From Escherichia phage A51.2, in sequence record ON286973: 64,000 bases of DNA; one strand, written 5' to 3'. Shown here one piece after another: positions 1,965 through 34,940 of the stretch. Position 1 is the stretch's first letter. Every line of letters begins with the position of its first letter. Under the pieces are notes generated by a model. It searched no databases. It was not told where the DNA came from and saw only the letters and a list, made by a program, of their open reading frames with translations. The position numbers and the translations under genes were made by a program.

Positions 1965-2948
1965 ATGATGACAAAGTTAACTCTTGAGCAAATTTTAACA
2001 CTAAAGCAGCAGGGATACACTAATAGACAAATTGCTCGTGAATTTTTAGGCCGTGAGTCACGTGAGAGCTGGATCCGACTACAGCTTAAACGTGCACAAG
2101 AGAATATGTCAGAGATTGTAGGAGAAGCAACGGAGCGCTTCCTTGAAGAACACAAAGGTGCTAAAGTTTGGGTGTATGATACAGAGACATCACCAACAAA
2201 CGGCTGGTTCTTTGGGCACTATAAGACCAACATTCAAACCTGCGGTATTGAAATTATGCCCTATATGCTAACTTTCGCAGGTAAGTGGTTAGACAGTCCT
2301 AGTGTGGTTGACTGCGCTCTTCCCGATTACAAAATGTGGGATGAGGATATTCACAATGACCTCGAATTGATTCAGGACTTGTGGTATTATCTGGATAAAT
2401 GTGATGTCGCAGTAGCCCACAATTCAGGTTTTGACTGTGGGTGGGCAAACCAACGATTTGCATTTCACGGGTTGCCGCCAACAAGCCCATACAAAGAGGT
2501 TGACACCCTTAAAATGATCAAGAAGGCATTCCGTTTGAATGCAAACACTTTGGAGTATGCATGCAAATACTTCCAACTTGCCCGACAGAAACTGATTGAC
2601 CACACATTTGAAATGTGGATCAAGTGTGTTCATGGTGATCTTGAGGCGTTTAAACAGATGCGGGAGTACAATGTTGGTGATATCCTATCTCTGGAAGGCC
2701 TGTATTTGCTGGCACGCCCGTTTGCTAAGCAGCACCCCAACATGTCATTGTACTACCAGGATGAGGAGCCAAAAGTTCGTTGCCCACGCTGTGGTGGAGA
2801 ACACCTTCACGAGGAAGAAGCTTTGGCGTATACTCAACTGAGTGCATTTAAAACATATCGCTGCGAAGGTTGTGGATCTGTTGTTCGTGACCGTAACAAC
2901 ATCCGTACCAGAGAAGAAATGAAAAACACCCTGATTCAGATAATCTAA
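1965..2948 (+). CDS. DEDD-type 3'-5' exonuclease-like protein with N-terminal HTH and C-terminal zinc ribbon
   Basis: VYDTETS (Exo I-like), HNSGFDCGW (Exo II-like), C-terminal CPRCGG...CEGCGS; ATG 1965 preceded by AAGGAA. Confidence 0.45.
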   Translation: MMTKLTLEQILTLKQQGYTNRQIAREFLGRESRESWIRLQLKRAQENMSEIVGEATERFLEEHKGAKVWVYDTETSPTNGWFFGHYKTNIQTCGIEIMPYMLTFAGKWLDSPSVVDCALPDYKMWDEDIHNDLELIQDLWYYLDKCDVAVAHNSGFDCGWANQRFAFHGLPPTSPYKEVDTLKMIKKAFRLNANTLEYACKYFQLARQKLIDHTFEMWIKCVHGDLEAFKQMREYNVGDILSLEGLYLLARPFAKQHPNMSLYYQDEEPKVRCPRCGGEHLHEEEALAYTQLSAFKTYRCEGCGSVVRDRNNIRTREEMKNTLIQII

Positions 2949-2957
2949 TCAAGTATA

Positions 2958-2986
2958 GGGAGGCTTGCGCCTCCCTTTTCCTTTTG
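2958..2986 (+). terminator. intrinsic terminator (GGGAGGC-TTGC-GCCTCCC hairpin plus T tract)
   Basis: Perfect 7-bp stem followed by TTTTCCTTTT directly after exonuclease stop. Confidence 0.6.
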
Positions 2987-2994
2987 GAGGCACT

Positions 2995-3813
2995 TTGAGC
3001 AAGAAAGAGTCCAACGACAAATATTACACAAACCCTGAGTATGCAGAATATCTTGTTGGTAAAGTAAAAGATAAGTATGGAAATTGTGCATACGTTGAGC
3101 CTTCTGCTGGAAGGGGTTCTTTTTCAAAACTATTTTCAGAGATACTGTCTTACGATCTGGTACCAGATCCTGAATTTGAAGGACCAACACCGTGCATTCA
3201 GGCAAACTTCTTGGAGGTGCATCCCAAGGCAGATGTCTTCATAGGTAACCCACCATTTGGCAAGAATTCATCTTTAGCTTGCAAATTCTTTAACCATTGT
3301 GCATCATTGCTAGAGCTTGGAGGGGCTATAGCCTTCATCTTGCCACGGACATTTGAAAAAATATTTTTTGCAAACAAACTGGACATGTCTATGCACCTTG
3401 TCTACAGTGAAAGGTGCCCTAAGAACTCGTTTCTACTTAATGGCAAACCTTATGACGTGCCATGTGTTTTCCAAATTTGGGAGAAAAAGGCGTGCAACAG
3501 GGATCCTGTAGAGATTGGAGAGAATAAGTTATTTTCTTTTAGCACACCAGATGACTACGACTTCTGTGTAAGACGTGTTGGGTATAATGCTGGAAAAGTA
3601 TTGGGGGATGATGACCCAAAATCTGAAGAATCAACATATTTCATAAAATCTTTAGTTGACGGTGTTGACAGAGTGTTTGCTGAATGCTATTCTTCTTTTC
3701 AAGAAGAAGCAGGTAAGACTGCTGGAATGAAGAGTATAGGTAAGAAAGAACTACAATACATTTTGGAGACCAGGTATGATCAAAAGCATAGACTTGACCA
3801 AAGAACTTACTGA
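2995..3813 (+). CDS. DNA N6-adenine methyltransferase
   Basis: Motif I-like EPSAGRGSF and motif IV NPPF; probable TTG start after GGAGG (ORF-track start 2965 lies inside the terminator hairpin). Confidence 0.65.
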   Translation: MSKKESNDKYYTNPEYAEYLVGKVKDKYGNCAYVEPSAGRGSFSKLFSEILSYDLVPDPEFEGPTPCIQANFLEVHPKADVFIGNPPFGKNSSLACKFFNHCASLLELGGAIAFILPRTFEKIFFANKLDMSMHLVYSERCPKNSFLLNGKPYDVPCVFQIWEKKACNRDPVEIGENKLFSFSTPDDYDFCVRRVGYNAGKVLGDDDPKSEESTYFIKSLVDGVDRVFAECYSSFQEEAGKTAGMKSIGKKELQYILETRYDQKHRLDQRTY

Positions 3814-4234
3814 TGCAAAAGCTTTTGGTGAGACAGCGGTACAAAGGGGGCAGGCGATGGGACTGGCACTACCTTTCGTATTAAAAGAGCACTTTACAGA
3901 TTTTCAACTTATCAAGGGTGATAAGGGAATGCTTATCCTGGAGCATAAGTTGAGTAAGAAACGCTATAAAGTTGTTTTTAATTCTAAAGCTCCAACAAAA
4001 CTGGGATTCAGAACTTACAATCTTAACCCATCCTACACTAAGGGTGTTGGAAGGGTAGAACAACAGCATTTCAGTGCCAGAGCTTCTTTAGCCCCTTTGA
4101 TGCTAAATTTCTCAGGGGTGGCTTTAGGATACCTTGATAAGAAAAGAGTTCTTCATGTCCGTTTCACAGACTTTGTAACGCTTCTAGCCAACAACGAGGT
4201 TGATGAAAAGGGACGTGTAAAAACAAACTTCTAA
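3776..4234 (+). CDS. hypothetical protein
   Basis: 152-aa ORF, ATG after GGAGAC. Confidence 0.4.
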   Translation: MIKSIDLTKELTDAKAFGETAVQRGQAMGLALPFVLKEHFTDFQLIKGDKGMLILEHKLSKKRYKVVFNSKAPTKLGFRTYNLNPSYTKGVGRVEQQHFSARASLAPLMLNFSGVALGYLDKKRVLHVRFTDFVTLLANNEVDEKGRVKTNF

Positions 4235-29193: not shown

Positions 29194-29216
29194 ACTATCC
29201 ATGAAGGAGACTTGAG

Positions 29217-29549
29217 ATGGGTATACCGATCACTGTAAAAGAATTGAATGAACGTGATGCAGGTGGTCTATGGCCTGCACGAAAAATACACTGCATCCGT
29301 ATGAAAGAGAACCTTCAGCATCTTGAGCAACAGAAACGGATTGAGGTTGGTGATATTTTCGAAGTATTTTATTCTGATCGCCGTAACTGGGAAACCATTC
29401 AACCTTCCGGTTTTGTTCTTGCTAAGCTTGACACTGGAGAAGTGATTGTTCCTGGGTTGGATATTGTCTTCGAAATTATACAGGAGTGGGATCCGGACAA
29501 GATTAGATACGAAGAGCTATTCGGTGAAGGTATTATCAAACCTGTGTGA
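29217..29549 (+). CDS. hypothetical protein
   Basis: RBS AAGGAGA 6 nt upstream. Confidence 0.45.
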   Translation: MGIPITVKELNERDAGGLWPARKIHCIRMKENLQHLEQQKRIEVGDIFEVFYSDRRNWETIQPSGFVLAKLDTGEVIVPGLDIVFEIIQEWDPDKIRYEELFGEGIIKPV

Positions 29550-29557
29550 GGTGGATT

Positions 29558-29857
29558 ATGTCTACAAAGGCGGCTAAATACTCCTATATGCCATCAACCT
29601 CTGCAGAGGTAGACTTTAGTTTCGATGTGTTTCCACTGTTTGAGGTGGTTCTGGCATACCCAACAATACTATCTACTCCTGAATCACTTGTGCCTGTTAA
29701 GTTGCAGAACGCTATGCATTCCATGCACTACAACAACAAATGTAGGCACAGATGGTGTCAGGACGAGGAAAAAGATTTGGATAGTTTGAGAGATTTTGAC
29801 AGTCACCTTTTGACACCTTTCAGCTACTCCAACCTTGATAAGCCCTCGTGGGTATAG
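29558..29857 (+). CDS. hypothetical protein
   Basis: ATG 29558 after GTGAGGTGG. Confidence 0.4.
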   Translation: MSTKAAKYSYMPSTSAEVDFSFDVFPLFEVVLAYPTILSTPESLVPVKLQNAMHSMHYNNKCRHRWCQDEEKDLDSLRDFDSHLLTPFSYSNLDKPSWV

Positions 29858-30070
29858 CAAAATATCAAATTTAAGACACCTAGAACGCTCTGTGGCGTCC
29901 TTTTCTTTATCTGGTGCACGATTGCATACCTTGGGTAGTTAATTTCATTACAGAGCGTTTAAGAGCTCCCTACAAACAACCCCATATTTCGAGCGTAGCG
30001 AGAACGCACGTCCGTTTTGACCCAAATCACCATACGCTCGGATTTTAACCAAACCCTCGCGGCGTTTCTG

Positions 30071-30099
30071 TTGACACATTACCGATCCAGTGATAGTAT
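30071..30099 (+). promoter_or_regulatory. sigma70-like promoter (TTGACA-17-TAGTAT)
   Basis: Consensus hexamers; overlaps 8/9 DnaA-box-like TATCCACAC. Confidence 0.55.
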
Positions 30100-30131
30100 C
30101 CACACATCGTTTGGAGAATATGGGATACACA

Positions 30132-30221
30132 ATGAAAACATTGTCAGAGGTTTTGGTGGTGATCCTGATGATCATTACGTCCATAGTGGCTGTTGCCGGA
30201 ATACTCACGGGTGGAACATGA
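30132..30221 (+). CDS. small hydrophobic peptide (29 aa)
   Basis: MKTLSEVLVVILMIITSIVAVAGILTGGT downstream of promoter; below ORF cutoff. Confidence 0.3.
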   Translation: MKTLSEVLVVILMIITSIVAVAGILTGGT

Positions 30222-30430
30222 TAAACACACATGCATCTGAAGAGACATCCAAAGGAGTGACTATATGTCCCTTGACTGAGCCAGTGCAAGAGGAAAACTT
30301 CGATTCTGAAGATTCTTCATCTTCGCTCCAGGTAGATCCTGAGGCTGATGACCTGACGTGGGAAGACATCGTAGATATCTGGTTCTCTATTATGCCTGAG
30401 CACGAAGAGTTCAGGGGTGGTAGACTATGA
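30218..30430 (+). CDS. hypothetical acidic protein
   Basis: ATG overlapping upstream stop (ATGA); part of ORF-track 30017..30430. Confidence 0.3.
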   Translation: MINTHASEETSKGVTICPLTEPVQEENFDSEDSSSSLQVDPEADDLTWEDIVDIWFSIMPEHEEFRGGRL

Positions 30431-30551
30431 AGCACCGAGCCCACACAGGTTCCTCATGCTGAAGCATGGCCTGAAGAGGCAAACGTGCATAATTCCTGTG
30501 CATCGGAACGTATAAAACCCTGTTCACACTCTCATTTCCAGAGGAGATTTC

Positions 30552-30767
30552 ATGAAGATAGAAATATTTGGTGGAGCTGACAACACTCGTGGCCTGATTT
30601 ACCTTGAATTCGATGAATCATACCTGCCAGAGGTGTTAAATATAGACTCTGTTGCTGATGCTTTGGGAGTAAGTCCTAAAGATCTCTACTCTGGTGCTGA
30701 GATTGATGGTTGGGAGGAGACCATGAACATTGATTTCAGTGAAGTAGAGGATGAACCGCTGGACTGA
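30552..30767 (+). CDS. small acidic protein (MKIEIFG..., C-terminus EVEDEPLD)
   Basis: RBS AGAGGAGA; last plus-strand gene before the non-coding region. Confidence 0.45.
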   Translation: MKIEIFGGADNTRGLIYLEFDESYLPEVLNIDSVADALGVSPKDLYSGAEIDGWEETMNIDFSEVEDEPLD

Positions 30768-32183
30768 CGCACAATTAGCTGCCCGGCCAAAGTGCTGGAA
30801 GCACCTATAACACATCTTTCAACTAAATTTCCCACCACCACAATCACTTACCTTCCACACATGACTGTTTGCTTGTTTAGTGAGCAGTCATGCCTTGACA
30901 TTCTTGCCTATCCTGATAAAATTAAGTTCTTCTCTTTTCTTTTACCGAGTAATTCGGGTTTTCTGTTCTCTTCGGTTTGAAGGGGTATAGAGATACACCT
31001 GAGTGAACAGGGTGAACAACCGAACCATTAGCTATGGCATTAGCATGGCGAAGCGGACGGGTGACGAAAGAGGGGCCGGAGGACACCAGTCACTGCCATA
31101 TGATATATGGGTGATAACCTGAAGAGTCTGAATAAGTGTTTAAGTACCAGTCAGAGGAAAAGGTGAATGGTAGCCGAAGGGGGGAGGGGGGTTTCTTGTA
31201 TCTTTAATTTGTATATTATGTATACACTTGTAAACCAATCTAATCTGAATCTGTTTACCACACAAAGCGGATAGAGACAAATATTGCCTATTAAACTTGA
31301 ATTATTTATAGAAAATACCACAACACCCCTTAAGTCTTTGATTTTACACACAAATCCTACAGATATTCAACCTCCATATTTAACATACTTGTAACATATT
31401 CCATACTCTACCTGCCTGATCAATTTCCCCAACTACATTCTCATATTTCCCCTGTCTGTACTACCCTGCCCCACCGGGAGTCCCGTCATATCTGGCTTTC
31501 CAGCAAATATCACACCCACAAATATCATGCCTGAAGAGGGTTTCATCCCATAATACCTGCCTTGCCTGAAGAGCGCTTCATACACCACGTAAATTTTTTA
31601 ATTGACCTCCCCTGCCCCGCCGGAGAGGTTGGCTTTTCCCACACAGACCTGGAGAGTCAGCCAGAAATATCTGAATAGGCCCAGTTCTACCACGATTTTG
31701 ACCTGACCTACAGGAGCGCTGCCAGGCGGACGAAATGGGAATACTTCTCATTCTTATAACAATTCTCAAATATCGAGGCAGTGAGGCAAATTAATAGGCC
31801 AGGCCGTTCACACAGTGGCACAACATTTGCAACCTATCTTGTGGGGTGAATGAGAATACCTATCATTGTGAGAACCATTATCATTACGGGCAATTTAACA
31901 TAATACCCATTATGCGCACCACTGGCGATCCATACAGGGATTGATAACACGAGTTACAGTTTACGCATATAACAATCATATTTCTTACTATTTGTGTGGG
32001 ATATAGTTAGCAGCCGATAGATTAGATATTGACCTGTGGACTTCCAACCGTCTAGACGTCTAAGCGCCCACACAACAAGGCTTATACATACATTACTGAA
32101 TGTAAACAGGGCCGCAAAAATGCTACCATACCAGTTTGTAAATTTTTCATGCAGCACTTGACAAAGAGGAGGAAAACTTGTCT

Positions 32184-32277
32184 GACACAATGTCACACAA
32201 TATGACACAATAACGGCTGTTACCATTCCATATCTCACTGTTTACGCATAGACTGTTTACGCCTGGATAGTTTACAC
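32184..32277. repeat. short direct repeats: GACACAAT x3 (32184-32211) and TGTTTACGC x2 plus GTTTACAC (32239-32277)
   Basis: Read directly from sequence; non-coding. Confidence 0.8.
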
Positions 32278-32395
32278 AGATATGATAAGCCATGCCATTC
32301 GTTTGCATGAAAACAATTAACAAGATAACAATCGACAAGTTAATAATCTTTCGCTGGCTATGCCAGGTGACTAGGTCACCCCTTCGGGCGTTCCT

Positions 32396-32550
32396 ATGAC
32401 ATAATATAAAAGCAGGGCAACTATTAGCAGATCTATAGTTGCCTTGCTTGTTATGTCATGATTAACTAAATACAAGGCAACTATGATCTGATTAATAGTT
32501 TGCAGACAAACTATCACGGGGGTGATGGTTACTGCTTTTATATTATGTCG
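32396..32550. repeat. inverted-repeat-bounded cassette with GGCAACTAT iterons in alternating orientation
   Basis: ATGACATAATATAAAAGCAG (32396-32415) vs its reverse complement 32532-32550 (19/20); GGCAACTAT at 32416, 32476; ATAGTTGCC at 32435; ATAGTTTGC at 32495. Confidence 0.75.
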
Positions 32551-33195
32551 CGACTCCGTCGCGCCATGCCATTCGTTTGCATAGTTGCCTTATTGTTATG
32601 AATAAAACAATTGCATTGTTAATGATTTCTTATCTTTCTATTAGTCATCTAATGATTTCAGTCAGGATAGTAATGTACAGTAAACATTAGACGACTAAAG
32701 ATTTCTCTGTTTATGATAACCTATCGTGACAATTTCGGACTGTTTACGAAAAATGTTGACACCTGAGCTGATTTATGTTATGCAGTTTACACGAATAATT
32801 ATTTTATACAGGTATTGACTATTCTGTTATTCTATGGTTGGAATAAATACTTAGCAGACTATAGAATGGTGAGCGTACGTAAATTCTGAGATCTGGCGGC
32901 TATAGTTATACTCGATTTTTCACGTAGAACGCGCTTTTGTGGTTATGTAAGTGTATGACTTATAAGAATTTTTATTTGTTGACAAGATATTGAAGATGTG
33001 CATCAGGTTAAAATTTGTGCAATAGCGGCATTACGTGCAATTTTGAGGGAGAAAACGGGTAAAAATGGCCCTGCTACCACACAATGAAAAATTATGCAAT
33101 AGTTATTTTATATGTATGTTTGTACAGTGTGTGGGATTGATGGCTAGTCAATTATTCCACTTGCCAGGCTGGGCCGTTTGTGGTAGGGGGAAGAG

Positions 33196-33225
33196 CAGAC
33201 AAAAAGAAAGGGGCCTAAGCCCCTT
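33196..33225 (-). terminator. intrinsic terminator for minus-strand small-gene cluster
   Basis: Hairpin AAGGGGC-TTAG-GCCCCTT followed by U-run on minus strand, just 3' of gene 33244..33663. Confidence 0.6.
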
Positions 33226-33243
33226 GATAATTCAGTTAAAAAA

Positions 33244-33663
33244 TTATAATGATTCGTATATTTCATAGATTCGATTTGCCAGGTCGTTACGATAACGAAA
33301 TTTTTCATCACGTTTGATCATCAGATCCTTAAATCCATATTCTTTAAGCACTTCATTAACTTTATAGCGGCATACCTTCATATTATCCTGAGCGTCACCG
33401 ATAAACTTGTTGCTATGATGCATGGCTTTGATCTCTTCCTCCAGGACCAGGGCAACTATGCGGACCGGATCAAGCTGATAGGCGGTAACATCCATGCGGC
33501 ATTGCAAACGGCTTTTTACGTCTGCCACCGGATATACTGCAACCTCTTCCCCGTCAACATTGACAATAATTAGTTTACCATCAATTTCAAAACCTTTCGC
33601 CGCCGGACCGTGACAAAAAGCGTTATCAAAGCTATATGCCGGATTATTAGATTTAATGTTCAT
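33244..33663 (-). CDS. hypothetical protein
   Basis: 139-aa ORF, RBS GAGGT. Confidence 0.5.
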   Translation of the reverse strand: MNIKSNNPAYSFDNAFCHGPAAKGFEIDGKLIIVNVDGEEVAVYPVADVKSRLQCRMDVTAYQLDPVRIVALVLEEEIKAMHHSNKFIGDAQDNMKVCRYKVNEVLKEYGFKDLMIKRDEKFRYRNDLANRIYEIYESL

Positions 33664-33712
33664 GGTGTTTTTACCTCTTAGTTAATTTTCTTACAACTTC
33701 CCTTCAAAAAAG

Positions 33713-33741
33713 AATATAGCAAAACTGCCGATCCTTGTCAA
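33713..33741 (-). promoter_or_regulatory. sigma70-like promoter (TTGACA-17-TATATT)
   Basis: Consensus hexamers on minus strand upstream of 33663 start. Confidence 0.55.
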
Positions 33742-33809
33742 CCAAGGATAGCATAATTTTTTATGTGATCAAGGGGCTTTATTGCCCCCCTGATCGTGCA
33801 ACTTGTTTA

Positions 33810-34073
33810 TTATTTGTTGCTCATCCAGTTTTCCCAGGCTGCCTGATAATCTGCCTCACTGCGGCGGATCTCTTCTTGTTCTTCAAGGCGGATCTCTTCT
33901 TCCAGGTACCCCAGTATATCGGCTTTTTTGGTCTGGCGTAGCATCCAGTCATCTTTTTTGCGGGTAAAGATCTTATAAGCTTTCTCGCAAACCTCTTTTT
34001 TGCTACCTTTCTGGACTTCAAGAACACGATAAGCCATATATTGAACTAGTTTGAGCTGGTCAAGACGTTTCAT
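33810..34073 (-). CDS. hypothetical basic protein
   Basis: Internal ATG with RBS AAGAGG chosen; ORF-track start 34157 would overlap next gene. Confidence 0.4.
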   Translation of the reverse strand: MKRLDQLKLVQYMAYRVLEVQKGSKKEVCEKAYKIFTRKKDDWMLRQTKKADILGYLEEEIRLEEQEEIRRSEADYQAAWENWMSNK

Positions 34074-34134
34074 GATGTTTACCTCTTTATGCGGTTCTGG
34101 TTTGGTGGGCCTTTTGGCCCGTGTCATTATCTTA

Positions 34135-34407
34135 TTACTTATGGCGGCAGAATTCAAGCGTTTTTAATTGATAATCTTCCTCAGCCTGGAGTACTACCGC
34201 CTCGATCATTTCGTTGGCATTGTTAAAGCCATAACCTTTAGCGAACTCATCCGCGCCACCTTCGTGATCATGTTCTGCGTTCATCGCTTCCACAAAATGG
34301 AATTCCAAATTGTTGAGGTAGGGGCTTGATGTTCCGTCCTCTTTTTCGATGAGATCCCAAATAGCATTAAAACGTGATTCGACTTCTTGATTAATCCAGC
34401 TTGACAT
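34135..34407 (-). CDS. hypothetical acidic protein
   Basis: 90-aa ORF, RBS AGGAGAGAGG. Confidence 0.45.
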   Translation of the reverse strand: MSSWINQEVESRFNAIWDLIEKEDGTSSPYLNNLEFHFVEAMNAEHDHEGGADEFAKGYGFNNANEMIEAVVLQAEEDYQLKTLEFCRHK

Positions 34408-34461
34408 AGTGTTTTCCTCTCTCCTGGTTGTTGTGTGGGCACCTTTGCCCCTTCAAGATAA

Positions 34462-34491
34462 ATGTTACCTCACCCCCATGGCAGATGTCAA
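34462..34491 (-). promoter_or_regulatory. promoter (TTGACA-18-TAACAT) followed by GC hairpin and CA-rich leader
   Basis: Hexamers on minus strand; hairpin GGGGCAAAGGTGCCC at 34437-34451. Confidence 0.5.
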
Positions 34492-34516
34492 CGGTTTTTA
34501 TAGTTCTTATATGACA

Positions 34517-34539
34517 GGCAGGCCCGGTGATTGTCTCCC
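34517..34539. repeat. 23-bp repeat GGGAGACAATCACCGGGCCTGCC (minus orientation), identical to 44142-44164
   Basis: Perfect 23/23 inverted match about 9.6 kb apart. Confidence 0.85.
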
Positions 34540-34628
34540 CCCTGTTCCCAAGTGCCGCCCGTTTAATAAGAATAACAAAAGGGGCCGAACAAGTCAACCC
34601 CAAAATCAGTACCAAAAACACTTTTTAT

Positions 34629-34940
34629 TTATACGGTCCGATCATTGGCCTTTGTCCAGGACCTGGCGATCCGTTTCCCGGTCACCTGGAACGGAGACTG
34701 CATTGTGTGTAATGAGTCCAGCGTAAGGGAGGACCGTTTACGGCGTATCTTCAGGATCGCTAACGTATTGTCCATCTCACGGCCAGGCCCTGGGCGGTAT
34801 GGTGTGCCTCCAGCGTTAAGGTTGATGATCTCATGTATTGAGATCCGGCGTTGTTTTGCTTCCGCATCTTTGAAGATAGCCAGCGGAGGCGCTATGCGTT
34901 GCCGATACCAATCTAAAACGGTTGGCGTAATAGCGATCAT
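34629..34940 (-). CDS. hypothetical protein
   Basis: 103-aa ORF. Confidence 0.45.
   Translation of the reverse strand: MIAITPTVLDWYRQRIAPPLAIFKDAEAKQRRISIHEIINLNAGGTPYRPGPGREMDNTLAILKIRRKRSSLTLDSLHTMQSPFQVTGKRIARSWTKANDRTV

What the first reader, a model, noticed from the sequence alone, without database searches (positions are those of the whole stretch)
30768..33243. 2.4-kb non-coding region between convergent blocks, with iterons and palindromes (candidate origin or regulatory hub)
This region has no credible ORF but is packed with short repeats: GACACAAT x3, TGTTTACGC x2, CATGCCATTCGTTTGCAT x2 (32291 and 32565), the palindrome GGTGACTAGGTCACC (32366-32380), and a 155-bp cassette bounded by a 20-bp inverted repeat (32396/32550) enclosing GGCAACTAT iterons in alternating orientation. 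Iterons plus palindromes in AT-rich DNA are the classic look of a replication origin or packaging/regulatory site.
Basis: partly seen in the sequence, partly recalled or inferred. Interest (0 to 1): 0.65.

Follow-up and report, generated by a model that had tools for sequence, protein, structure and literature searches.

The report
Phage genome ends and packaging signals
The gene-free 2.5 kb stretch is where the linear DNA of this rV5-like E. coli phage starts and ends: a 458-bp repeat found at both ends of the packaged DNA, flanked by the repeats and hairpins that most likely guide cutting and packaging. This is a known kind of feature, not a demonstrated replication origin.

Summary
The window is a Vequintavirus (rV5-like myophage). 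Region 30768-33243 is the unexplained "non-coding" box of the rV5 paper.

The region holds the physical genome ends. Window 31725-32182 (458 bp) is the direct terminal repeat (DTR). Records from several labs start at GGCGGACG... (31725) or end at ...AAAACTTGTC (32182). YN3 and EdH4 carry it exactly at both ends. Published DTR lengths are 458-459 bp.

- The "iterons" are hypervariable short-period arrays that begin at the first base after the DTR. I confirmed the same layout in T7.
- The inverted-repeat cassette (32398-32549) is about 99% conserved.
- Structurally equivalent cassettes, with compensatory changes between them, occur in Klebsiella phage KPP-1 and Salmonella phage PVP-SE1.
- Both cut-site motifs are conserved across the three genera.
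- A promoter-led ~265-nt unit (30895-31197) is also ultra-conserved and unexplained.

No DnaA-box enrichment, adjacent initiator gene or Rfam family was found.

Verdict: a T7-type concatemer junction and packaging region. Origin function is unsupported but not excluded. Roles of the individual elements are inferred, not shown.

The parts
30768..33243 (.). Whole gene-free gap between convergent small-gene blocks. It is the region around the virion DNA ends, the concatemer junction.
   Evidence: The same layout is seen in KPP-1 and PVP-SE1.
30895..30922 (+). Sigma-70-type promoter: TTGACA, 16 nt, TAAAAT, with an upstream TG (extended -10). It points towards the right genome end.
   Evidence: 11 of 12 matches. 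In IMG/VR relative L003 both hexamers are kept while the spacer has diverged and is 18 nt.
30929..31197 (+). Ultra-conserved ~265-nt unit downstream of the promoter, ending at GAAGGGGGGAGGGGGGTT. It is a candidate early non-coding RNA of unknown function.
   Evidence: Identity 0.985 across 14 phages, against 0.80-0.93 at third codon positions of the flanking genes. Conservation stops sharply after the G-run in LL12, A147 and CYGL01000294. No conserved ORF. No Rfam match. The fold is not significant, z = -1.3.
31505..31528 (+). Pair of AAATATCAY motifs, 15 bp apart, about 200 bp before the left cut site.
   Evidence: These are the only two copies in the 64-kb window. The same pair (AAATATCAC..AAATATCATG) lies upstream of the KPP-1 DTR.
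31716..31731 (.). Left cut site: GCGCTGCCA | GGCGGAC. The virion left end is base 31725.
   Evidence: Records YN3, EdH4, bov10K2, bov11CS3, bov22_2, bov25_3 and ECP2309 start at this base, and Pr121LW (minus-strand match) ends its record on this DTR. The motif TGCYA|GRCGGAC is shared with KPP-1 and PVP-SE1.
31725..32182 (.). Direct terminal repeat (DTR), 458 bp. It is present once in this collapsed sequence and at both ends of virion DNA.
   Evidence: An exact 458-bp copy lies at both ends of the YN3 record and a 459-bp copy in EdH4. Published lengths are 458 bp (PMC6563267) and 459 bp (PMC7471380). Identity among relatives is 0.949. Its interior is homologous to the KPP-1 DTR.
31851..31883 (.). 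Two tandem palindromes, TGAGAATACCTATCA and TGAGAACCATTATCA, resembling Fur boxes (7-1-7 form). A third lies at 31754.
   Evidence: 3 of the 20 sites scoring at least 11 of 14 in 64 kb fall inside the 458-bp DTR. Navn and magaca annotate this as a repeat_region. Similar palindromes cluster in the KPP-1 terminus.
32135..32182 (.). Right-end motif TTTGTAAATTT ... CTTGACAAAGAG, with the cut 19 nt after TTGACA. The virion right end is base 32182.
   Evidence: Records YN3, EdH4, ECP2309 and ECP2303 end here. It is colinear with KPP-1 and PVP-SE1, where the cut lies 18 nt after TTGACA.
32183..32212 (+). TGACAYA-type array with a 10-11 bp period, starting at the first base after the DTR.
   Evidence: There are 3-8 copies and the sequence varies among 14 phages. 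In the CM1 record the duplicated segment is DTR plus this 64-bp array.
32237..32281 (+). CTGTTYACR array with a 15-bp period.
   Evidence: Copy number runs from 1 (navn) to about 12 (rV5). These are not DnaA boxes.
32289..32308 (+). First copy of the 20-nt direct repeat GCCATGCCATTCGTTTGCAT.
   Evidence: It is conserved in all relatives.
32312..32348 (+). AACAAnTnAACAAG array with a 15-bp period.
   Evidence: Copy number varies.
32354..32388 (.). Three small hairpins: CTGGC-TAT-GCCAG, GGTGAC-TAG-GTCACC and CCC-TTC-GGG.
   Evidence: z = -2.0. The stem is kept while the loop varies (TAG, TTT, TTC, A). The hairpins are absent in IMG1, B9-1, ime and CarlMeissner.
32398..32549 (.). Palindromic cassette: a perfect 18-bp outer stem enclosing GGCAACTAT/ATAGTTGCC hairpins and AACTATCAC-GGGG-GTGATGGTT.
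   Evidence: z = -9.75. Identity is 0.99. Variation is confined to the loops: 9-11 nt loop lengths, a 33-nt insertion in the apical loop in rV5, LL12, A147 and phita32, and IMG1 changes only in the loop. Structural counterparts occur in KPP-1 (z = -11.1) and PVP-SE1 (z = -11.9), with 2 compensatory changes in their outer stem.
32550..32598 (+). GCGAC-TCC-GTCGC hairpin, the second copy of the 20-nt direct repeat (32563-32582) and a fifth ATAGTTGCC copy.
   Evidence: It is invariant in all relatives.
32599..33243 (.). AT-rich remainder of the left arm, with sigma-70-like sites (for example TTGACA, 17 nt, TATGCA at 32757) and the terminator hairpin of the first - strand gene at 33207-33225.
   Evidence: Identity is 0.92, about the same as or slightly above neutral.

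Best explanation
The region is the concatemer junction of a Vequintavirus, the place where unit genomes are cut out of replicated DNA.

Shown (in close relatives):
- Virion DNA is linear with fixed ends.
- It starts at window base 31725 and ends at 32182, so the 458 bp between them are present at both ends as a direct terminal repeat.
- Everything else in the gap is the non-coding 'right arm' (30768-31724) and 'left arm' (32183-33243) that meet across a single DTR copy in replicating DNA.

Inferred mechanism (T7-type packaging):
- The terminase recognises sequence-specific sites. These are TGCYA|GRCGGAC at the left cut, and TTTGTAAATTT..CTTGACA followed by 18-19 nt at the right cut. Both are conserved in three genera.
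- It cuts there, and the DTR is duplicated so that each packaged genome carries two copies.
- The short-period arrays that begin at the first base after the DTR (TGACAYA, then CTGTTYACR) are the counterpart of the T7 CCTAAAG array. They most likely bind a packaging or end-handling protein on one face of the helix.
- The strongly conserved branched palindrome 215 bp inside the left arm most likely acts as a folded single-strand or cruciform structure during DTR duplication or end processing.
- The promoter-led conserved unit in the right arm is probably an early non-coding transcript directed at the genome end.
For: - Identity of the phage and the region: 121 vequintavirus records match at roughly 88-95% identity, and the region corresponds to rV5 104014-106617.
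- Ends: YN3 has an exact 458-bp copy at both record ends and EdH4 a 459-bp copy. Records from separate groups in Germany, China and Hungary start at the identical base, and four more records start or end exactly on the DTR.
- Literature: 458-bp terminal redundancy in EdH4 and HdK5 (PMC6563267). [quoted passage not shown] KPP-1 has a 514-bp DTR with T7-type packaging by PhageTerm (PMC9862379).
- The KPP-1 DTR is confirmed by the Klebsiella phage DP and KP12 records, which start exactly on it.
- Cut-site motifs, the internal DTR sequence and the position of the cassette are conserved in Vequintavirus, Mydovirus and Seunavirus.
- The arrays start exactly at the DTR boundary. T7 has the same arrangement: TR at 1-160, then about 12 CCTAAAG units with a 13-bp period at 175-341.
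- Cassette structure: z = -9.8, -11.1 and -11.9. Variation falls in the loops only, and the outer stem shows compensatory changes.
- A hairpin intermediate containing the terminal repeat is reported for T7 (as cited in PMC4281155).
- GC-skew polarity is terminus-like.
Against: - No sequencing reads or virion DNA of this particular phage were available. The ends are transferred from relatives whose DTRs are 95-97% identical.
- The rV5 paper called the genome circularly permuted, and one 2026 paper inferred headful packaging from PhageTerm for another vequintavirus.
- The CM1 record implies a redundancy that includes the 64-bp TGACAYA array (522 bp), so the right cut may lie on either side of that array.
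- No protein has been shown to bind any array.
- The arrays are absent from KPP-1 and PVP-SE1, so they cannot be essential to the shared mechanism.
- Perfect inverted repeats can also be kept identical by gene conversion rather than by selection for pairing.
Confidence: 0.85

Rival explanations
1. It is a replication origin. Iterons bind an initiator, the AT-rich DNA melts, and/or the promoter-led G-rich transcript at 30929-31197 forms an R-loop that primes DNA synthesis. This could coexist with the genome ends.
For: - Repeat arrays and an AT-rich left arm are present.
- A strong, conserved promoter drives a purine-rich transcript that ends at G6AG6 followed by TTTC. From memory, not tested here, this resembles the G-run (CSB II) at which mitochondrial primer RNA ends.
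- The rV5 authors looked for an origin by skew analysis and listed this interval among the switches.
Against: - The arrays are the fastest-evolving part of the region (identity 0.71, copy number 1 to about 12) and are missing in KPP-1 and PVP-SE1.
- DnaA boxes are not enriched.
- No initiator-like gene is adjacent.
- Cumulative GC skew has its maximum here, the polarity expected of a terminus, and the rV5 authors attributed the switch to transcription direction.
- KPP-1 has no counterpart of the promoter-led unit: only 334 bp separate its last gene from the DTR.
Confidence: 0.1
2. It is a locus of non-coding RNA genes. The conserved unit at 30929-31197 and the cassette at 32398-32549 are stable structured RNAs acting on the host or on phage gene expression, independently of packaging.
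For: - These two blocks are more conserved (0.985 and 0.99) than first and second codon positions of the neighbouring genes.
- The promoter hexamers are conserved although the spacer has diverged.
- In the cassette, the last hairpin is followed by a T-rich run on the + strand, which looks like a terminator.
- Loop-only variation fits an RNA as well as a DNA hairpin.
Against: - There is no Rfam match even at E up to 10.
- The fold of the first unit is not better than shuffles, z = -1.3.
- No recognisable promoter lies in front of the cassette.
- No transcriptome of any vequintavirus was found.
- Within the genus there is almost no variation, so covariation cannot be judged.
Confidence: 0.3
3. 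It is a T5-like injection-control region. The repeats and palindromes next to the terminal repeat would pause or regulate DNA entry by binding a host protein.
For: T5 has a large untranslated region full of repeats, inverted repeats and palindromes associated with its terminal repeat (bioRxiv 10.1101/866236). Here a similar clutter lies just inside the left end.
Against: - The T5 region lies inside a ~10-kb terminal repeat and carries 8 ordered DnaA boxes. Here the clutter lies outside a 458-bp repeat and DnaA boxes are not enriched.
- No pre-early genes lie between the end and the repeats.
- Two-step injection has not been reported for these phages in the papers read.
Confidence: 0.05
4. It is a passive spacer: decayed genes, or a buffer where convergent transcription ends.
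For: It lies between convergent transcription units. The rV5 authors expected terminators here. About half of the gap evolves at roughly the neutral rate, 0.91-0.92.
Against: - Two blocks are near-invariant and the DTR is at 0.95.
- Motifs and structure are conserved across three genera.
- The physical ends map here.
- Only one convincing terminator is present, at the very edge, 33207-33225.
Confidence: 0.03

Closest known systems
Concatemer junction and direct terminal repeat of phage T7 (T7-type packaging)
   Same: - A short exact repeat lies at both ends of a linear genome with fixed, sequence-specific ends.
- The arms on both sides are non-coding.
- An array of short repeats with about one helical-turn period starts just inside the left repeat: T7 has CCTAAAG units every 13 bp at 175-341 after TR 1-160, and here TGACAYA units every 10-11 bp start at 32183.
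- A promoter in the right arm points at the end: phiOR in T7, and 30895-30922 here.
- Hairpin intermediates have been reported in T7 end processing (PMC4281155).
   Different: - The host phage is a 137-kb myovirus that has no T7-like RNA polymerase reported and uses host-type promoters.
- The repeat is 458 bp instead of 160 bp.
- Genes on both sides are transcribed towards the ends rather than inwards from the left end.
- There is a large branched palindrome with no described T7 counterpart.
- There is no sequence similarity to T7.
- The terminase relationship was not tested.
Published terminal repeats of Vequintavirinae (EdH4/HdK5 458 bp, Gotham 459 bp, KPP-1 514 bp)
   Same: This is the same element. 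The window's 31725-32182 is 95-97% identical to those repeats and has the same boundaries.
   Different: In the passages I searched, those papers give the repeat length and, for KPP-1, coordinates and a T7-type call. I found no description there of the cut-site motifs, the boundary arrays, the palindromic cassette or the conserved promoter-led unit. I also found no link to the 'non-coding' box of the rV5 paper.
Untranslated repeat region / injection stop signal of phage T5
   Same: It is a large gene-free stretch associated with a terminal repeat, crowded with direct repeats, inverted repeats and palindromes that are conserved within the group.
   Different: The T5 region is inside a ~10-kb repeat and is built around 8 DnaA boxes. 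Here the clutter lies outside a 458-bp repeat and DnaA boxes are not enriched.
Iteron-type origins (plasmids, lambda)
   Same: Tandem short repeats with a helical-turn period next to AT-rich DNA.
   Different: There is no initiator gene nearby. Repeat number and sequence are not conserved even within the genus. There are no DnaA boxes.

Membership tests
T7-type direct-terminal-repeat genome ends | The same sequence is present at both ends of the virion DNA | tested here: met
   An exact 458-bp (YN3) and 459-bp (EdH4) copy lies at both record ends, and the window segment 31725-32182 is 96% identical to them. This was shown in relatives, not in this phage's own DNA.
T7-type direct-terminal-repeat genome ends | Ends are fixed and sequence-specific, not permuted | tested here: met
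   Independent records start at the identical base (GGCGGACG...) and end at ...AAAACTTGTC. [quoted passage not shown] The cut-site motifs are conserved in three genera. Dissenting reports: rV5 was called 'circularly permuted' and one PhageTerm result called headful packaging.
T7-type direct-terminal-repeat genome ends | Twofold read coverage over the repeat and read-start pile-ups at its boundaries in this phage | not testable with these tools
   No reads are available. This has been reported for KPP-1.
T7-type direct-terminal-repeat genome ends | Terminase large subunit clusters with those of DTR-packaging phages | not tested
   From the rV5 gene layout the terminase gene should lie outside the window. 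No phylogeny was made.
Iteron-type replication origin | Conserved iterons that are bound by an initiator encoded nearby | tested here: not met
   The arrays vary from 1 to about 12 copies and in sequence within the genus. Flanking proteins have no Pfam domain, and PHROGs list them as unknown function.
Iteron-type replication origin | DnaA boxes or another host-initiator signal | tested here: not met
   TTATCCACA with up to 1 mismatch: 0 sites in the region. TTWTNCACA with up to 1 mismatch: 13 sites against 7 expected, and they are scattered.
Iteron-type replication origin | Initiation of DNA synthesis at the site | not testable with these tools
   This needs marker-frequency or 2D-gel data.
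T5-type injection stop region | It lies inside the long terminal repeat and contains an ordered set of DnaA boxes | tested here: not met
   The repeat clutter is outside the 458-bp DTR. DnaA boxes are not enriched.
Described RNA families (Rfam 15) | A match to a covariance model | tested here: not met
   No match at gathering scores in the 64-kb window. Only chance-level miRNA and RAGATH matches with E above 4 in 30500-33500.

The most novel reading that the evidence does not exclude
The terminus region of Vequintavirinae may carry two functional elements that I found no description of.

(i) A structure-conserved, sequence-divergent branched palindrome a few hundred bp inside the left end. It could act as a fold-back DNA structure needed to duplicate the terminal repeat, or to process or protect the end.

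(ii) In Vequintavirus only, a near-invariant ~265-nt RNA made from a host-type promoter and ending at a G5-6AG5-6 run. It could couple transcription to end processing, or prime replication through an R-loop.
Probability: 0.2. Interest if true: 0.6.

Novelty: new member of a known kind. Interest (0 to 1): 0.33.

Why it matters
- It explains the "non-coding" box that the rV5 genome paper left open, and it corrects that paper's description of the genome as circularly permuted.
- It tells annotators where these genomes should start. Most of the roughly 120 deposited records are opened elsewhere.
- It gives testable cut-site motifs that are shared by three genera of phages used for typing and therapy.
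- The fine structure offers a second, non-T7 system for studying how short terminal repeats are duplicated during packaging. That step is still modelled rather than solved, even for T7.
- As a kind of feature, however, it is ordinary.

Tried and rejected
- Rfam, at gathering scores and at E up to 10, gave nothing. No tRNA or tmRNA was found.
- Coding potential of the conserved 30858-31197 block: no ORF is supported, and the few substitutions are non-synonymous in every open frame.
- Host origin of that block: there is no match in 5,426 E. coli genomes or in 185k bacterial species genomes. Metagenome hits are only vequintavirus contigs, and one of them (CYGL01000294) is again identical across the block.
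- DnaA boxes are not enriched.
- GGCAACTAT-N8-12-ATAGTTGCC elsewhere in IMG/VR: 8 further hits, all unrelated hairpins with no flanking similarity.
- Cassette as a mobile element: it occurs as a single copy, has no target-site duplication and sits at the same site in all relatives.
- Two stretches of the conserved right-arm unit are complementary to the two flanks of the cassette (pairs I10 and I13). This is judged to be chance, because the left target is absent in IMG1, B9-1, ime and CarlMeissner while the unit is invariant.
- Synteny anchor for other genera through the phrog_639 protein: the gene is 36 kb away from the DTR in KPP-1, so it is not usable.
- The I29 duplication as evidence for the ends: it has a palindromic junction and is probably an assembly artefact.
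- Literature search for a vequintavirus transcriptome found nothing.
Full report
**What the window is.** BLAST of 30700-33300 finds 121 phage records, all rV5-like (Vequintavirus). Identity runs from about 88% to 95%, and 97 records cover at least 80% of the query. The finding corresponds to rV5 104014-106617, between rv5_gp158 (+) and gp159 (-). No feature is annotated there in rV5, navn, LL12 and others. The rV5 genome paper drew it as a grey box "labeled non-coding", called the genome circularly permuted, and expected but did not find bidirectional terminators there (PMC3606486).

**The observation.** All the listed repeats exist, with small corrections:
- GACACAAT is exact twice, plus one CACACAAT.
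- The inverted-repeat arms are 18 nt and perfect (32398-32415 / 32532-32549).
- The direct repeat is a 20-mer (32289 and 32563).

Each motif is 10-25 times over-represented in the gap relative to the window. The cassette folds far better than shuffles, z = -9.75. ORFs inside are 66 aa or shorter and are not conserved, and the 67-aa ORF that runs across the right boundary is frameshifted in relatives.

**The key result: the genome ends are here.**
- In the distant-mode BLAST several records end or begin inside the region.
- A search with 31725-32182 alone shows these 458 bases at record positions 1-458 or 1-459 in bov10K2, bov11CS3, bov22_2, bov25_3, YN3, ECP2309 and Pr121LW. They sit at the very end of ECP2303.
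- YN3 carries an exact 458-bp copy at both ends and EdH4 an exact 459-bp copy.
- Records from separate groups in Germany, China and Hungary start with the same bases, GGCGGACG(A/G)AATGGG (window 31725). YN3 and EdH4 end with ...AAAACTTGTC (window 32182).
- This agrees with the literature. [quoted passage not shown] The window holds one copy, so it comes from a collapsed or re-opened assembly. The region is therefore the concatemer junction: right arm 30768-31724, DTR 31725-32182, left arm 32183-33243.

**Conservation map.** I aligned 14 vequintaviruses across 29200-34800.

| Segment | Identity |
|---|---|
| Flanking genes, 1st/2nd codon positions | 0.92-0.99 |
| Flanking genes, 3rd codon positions | 0.80-0.93 |
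| 30858-31193 | 0.985 |
| 32395-32598 | 0.99 |
| DTR | 0.949 |
| Rest of the two arms | 0.91-0.92 |
| 32183-32394 | 0.71 |

So the "iterons" are the least conserved part of the region, and two other blocks are under the strongest constraint.

**The arrays.** In every phage the first base after the DTR opens an array of TGACAYA-type units with a 10-11 bp period, in 3-8 copies.
- It is followed by CTGTTYACR units with a 15-bp period, from 1 copy in navn to about 12 in rV5.
- Next come a conserved GATGATAAGCCATGCCATTCGTTTGCATGA and then an AACAA-type array.
- In most phages small hairpins follow, whose stems are kept while the loops vary.
- In the CM1 record the duplicated segment is the DTR plus the 64-bp TGACAYA array, joined ...GGATAC|GGCGGACGG. 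This again marks the left end, and it suggests that the right cut may lie on the far side of the array in that phage.

I checked T7 directly. Its 160-bp repeat is followed at 175-341 by about 12 CCTAAAG units with a 13-bp period. Related units lie before the right repeat. The arrangement is therefore the known T7 one.

**The cassette.**
- The 18-bp outer stem and the internal GGCAACTAT/ATAGTTGCC stems never vary among the unique cassette sequences from the loci held.
- All variation is in the loops: loop length of 9-11 nt, loop sequence, and a 33-nt insertion in the apical loop of rV5, LL12, A147 and phita32. The IMG/VR relative changes only in the loop.
- Spacer-length changes argue against a simple dimeric operator and for a hairpin.

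**Other genera.**
- KPP-1 (Mydovirus) has a published 514-bp DTR with T7-type packaging (PMC9862379). Its boundaries are confirmed by the Klebsiella phage DP and KP12 records, which start exactly on it.
- The KPP-1 DTR too lies in a gene-poor gap between convergent blocks.
- PVP-SE1 (Seunavirus) has a 2.27-kb gap of the same kind holding a homologue of that DTR.
- The left cut reads GCTGCCA|GGCGGAC in Vequintavirus and GTGCTA|GACGGAC in Mydovirus and Seunavirus.
- The right end reads TTTGTAAATTT ... CTTGACA followed by 18-19 nt and then the cut, in all three genera.
- This predicts a 515-bp DTR at PVP-SE1 117218-117732.
- Each genus has a large branched palindrome 215-403 bp inside the left arm, with z = -9.8, -11.1 and -11.9.
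- The KPP-1 and PVP-SE1 versions differ by two compensated changes in a 19-bp outer stem with no broken pair.
- The Vequintavirus version has an unrelated sequence, and BLAST finds no alignment to it.

Structure, not sequence, is what is kept.

**The right arm.**
- A sigma-70-type promoter (TTGACA, 16 nt, TAAAAT, with an upstream TG; 30895-30922) scores 11 of 12.
- In the IMG/VR relative both hexamers survive a diverged 18-nt spacer.
- The next ~265 nt are almost invariant in the 14 distinct versions seen (13 among the loci, plus the CYGL01000294 contig).
- Similarity stops abruptly after GAAGGGGG(G)AGGGGG(G)TT in LL12, A147 and that contig.
- There is no ORF, no Rfam match and no host homologue, and the fold is not significant.
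- KPP-1 has no room for a counterpart.
- I regard it as a probable early non-coding transcript of unknown role.
- Its G-run resembles, from memory, the mitochondrial CSB II primer-termination signal. That is a lead, not a test.

**Against an origin.**
- DnaA boxes are not enriched.
- The neighbouring proteins have no Pfam domain and fall in PHROGs of unknown function.
- The arrays are hypervariable and genus-specific.
- Cumulative GC skew has its maximum here. The rV5 authors put that down to transcription direction.
- None of this excludes an origin, and it could coexist with the ends.

**Mechanism, with status.**
- Shown in close relatives: fixed ends at 31725 and 32182 and a 458-bp repeat.
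- Inferred from conservation: sequence-specific cutting at the two motifs, and a structural role for the cassette.
- Inferred by analogy with T7: protein binding to the boundary arrays; duplication of the repeat through strand displacement or primed synthesis, possibly using a fold-back (PMC4281155); and a role for the end-directed transcript.

**Verdict.** This is an ordinary kind of feature, a T7-type terminal-repeat junction, correctly flagged as non-coding and repeat-rich. The "packaging site" alternative is right and the "origin" headline is unsupported. The cross-genus cut-site motifs, the structure-conserved cassette and the ultra-conserved promoter-led unit were not described in any paper I read, and they give the region some residual interest.

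Noticed in passing
window 30858-31197: A near-invariant block (0.985 identity, above coding positions) made of a strong sigma-70-type promoter and about 265 nt ending in G6AG6. Its conservation boundaries are sharp. It has no ORF, no Rfam match and no host homologue, and it is absent from KPP-1.
   Followed up: partly
window 31754, 31851-31883; L024 3916-4661: Palindromes of the form TGAGAAn-N-AnTATCA score 11-13 of 14 against the 7-1-7 Fur-box form. They cluster in the DTR (3 of 20 in 64 kb) and in the KPP-1 terminus (6 in 750 bp). They may bind host Fur or a phage protein.
   Followed up: partly
L015 (Shigella phage CM1, MK962749) 2600-3645: The record contains the DTR plus the 64-bp TGACAYA array twice in tandem, with the junction ...CACACTGGATAC|GGCGGACGG. 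Either the terminal redundancy in CM1 is 522 bp, or both repeat copies were left in when the record was re-opened.
   Followed up: partly
L025 (Escherichia phage I29, ON286975) 1202-2341: A 594-bp tandem duplication covers the right arm and part of the DTR. The copies are joined through a 48-nt inverted copy of the segment's start. It looks like an assembly or library artefact.
   Followed up: partly
L041 (PVP-SE1, NC_016071) 1719-2233 = record 117218-117732: Motif conservation predicts a 515-bp direct terminal repeat in PVP-SE1, inside an unannotated 2.27-kb gap between genes 179 and 180.
   Followed up: partly
search results: Nineteen 'Campylobacter phage' records (MG0656xx; the one I opened is marked UNVERIFIED and none carry annotation) are about 90-95% identical to E. 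coli vequintaviruses across this region. The host label is probably wrong.
   Followed up: no
window 32450/32451 (rV5, LL12, A147, phita32): A 33-nt insertion (TTAACATCCTCGAGACGAAGGCTATGCCTGAGT) sits in the apical loop of the cassette. It contains another GGCTATGCC mini-hairpin like the one at 32355-32365.
   Followed up: no
window 32289-32308 and 32563-32582: In HMD-6 both copies of the 20-nt direct repeat carry the same C-to-A change (GCCATGACATTCG). A147 and AlexBoehm have it in the first copy only. This is a weak hint of concerted evolution or of a shared binding protein.
   Followed up: no
L017 (HMD-6, PQ505080) about 4100-4124: HMD-6 seems to lack the 139-aa gene that borders the gap on the right in all other relatives, so its non-coding gap is longer.
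   Followed up: no
window 33450-33458: A further GGCAACTAT copy lies inside the first - strand gene (33244-33663), 870 bp from the cassette. It may be chance.
   Followed up: no
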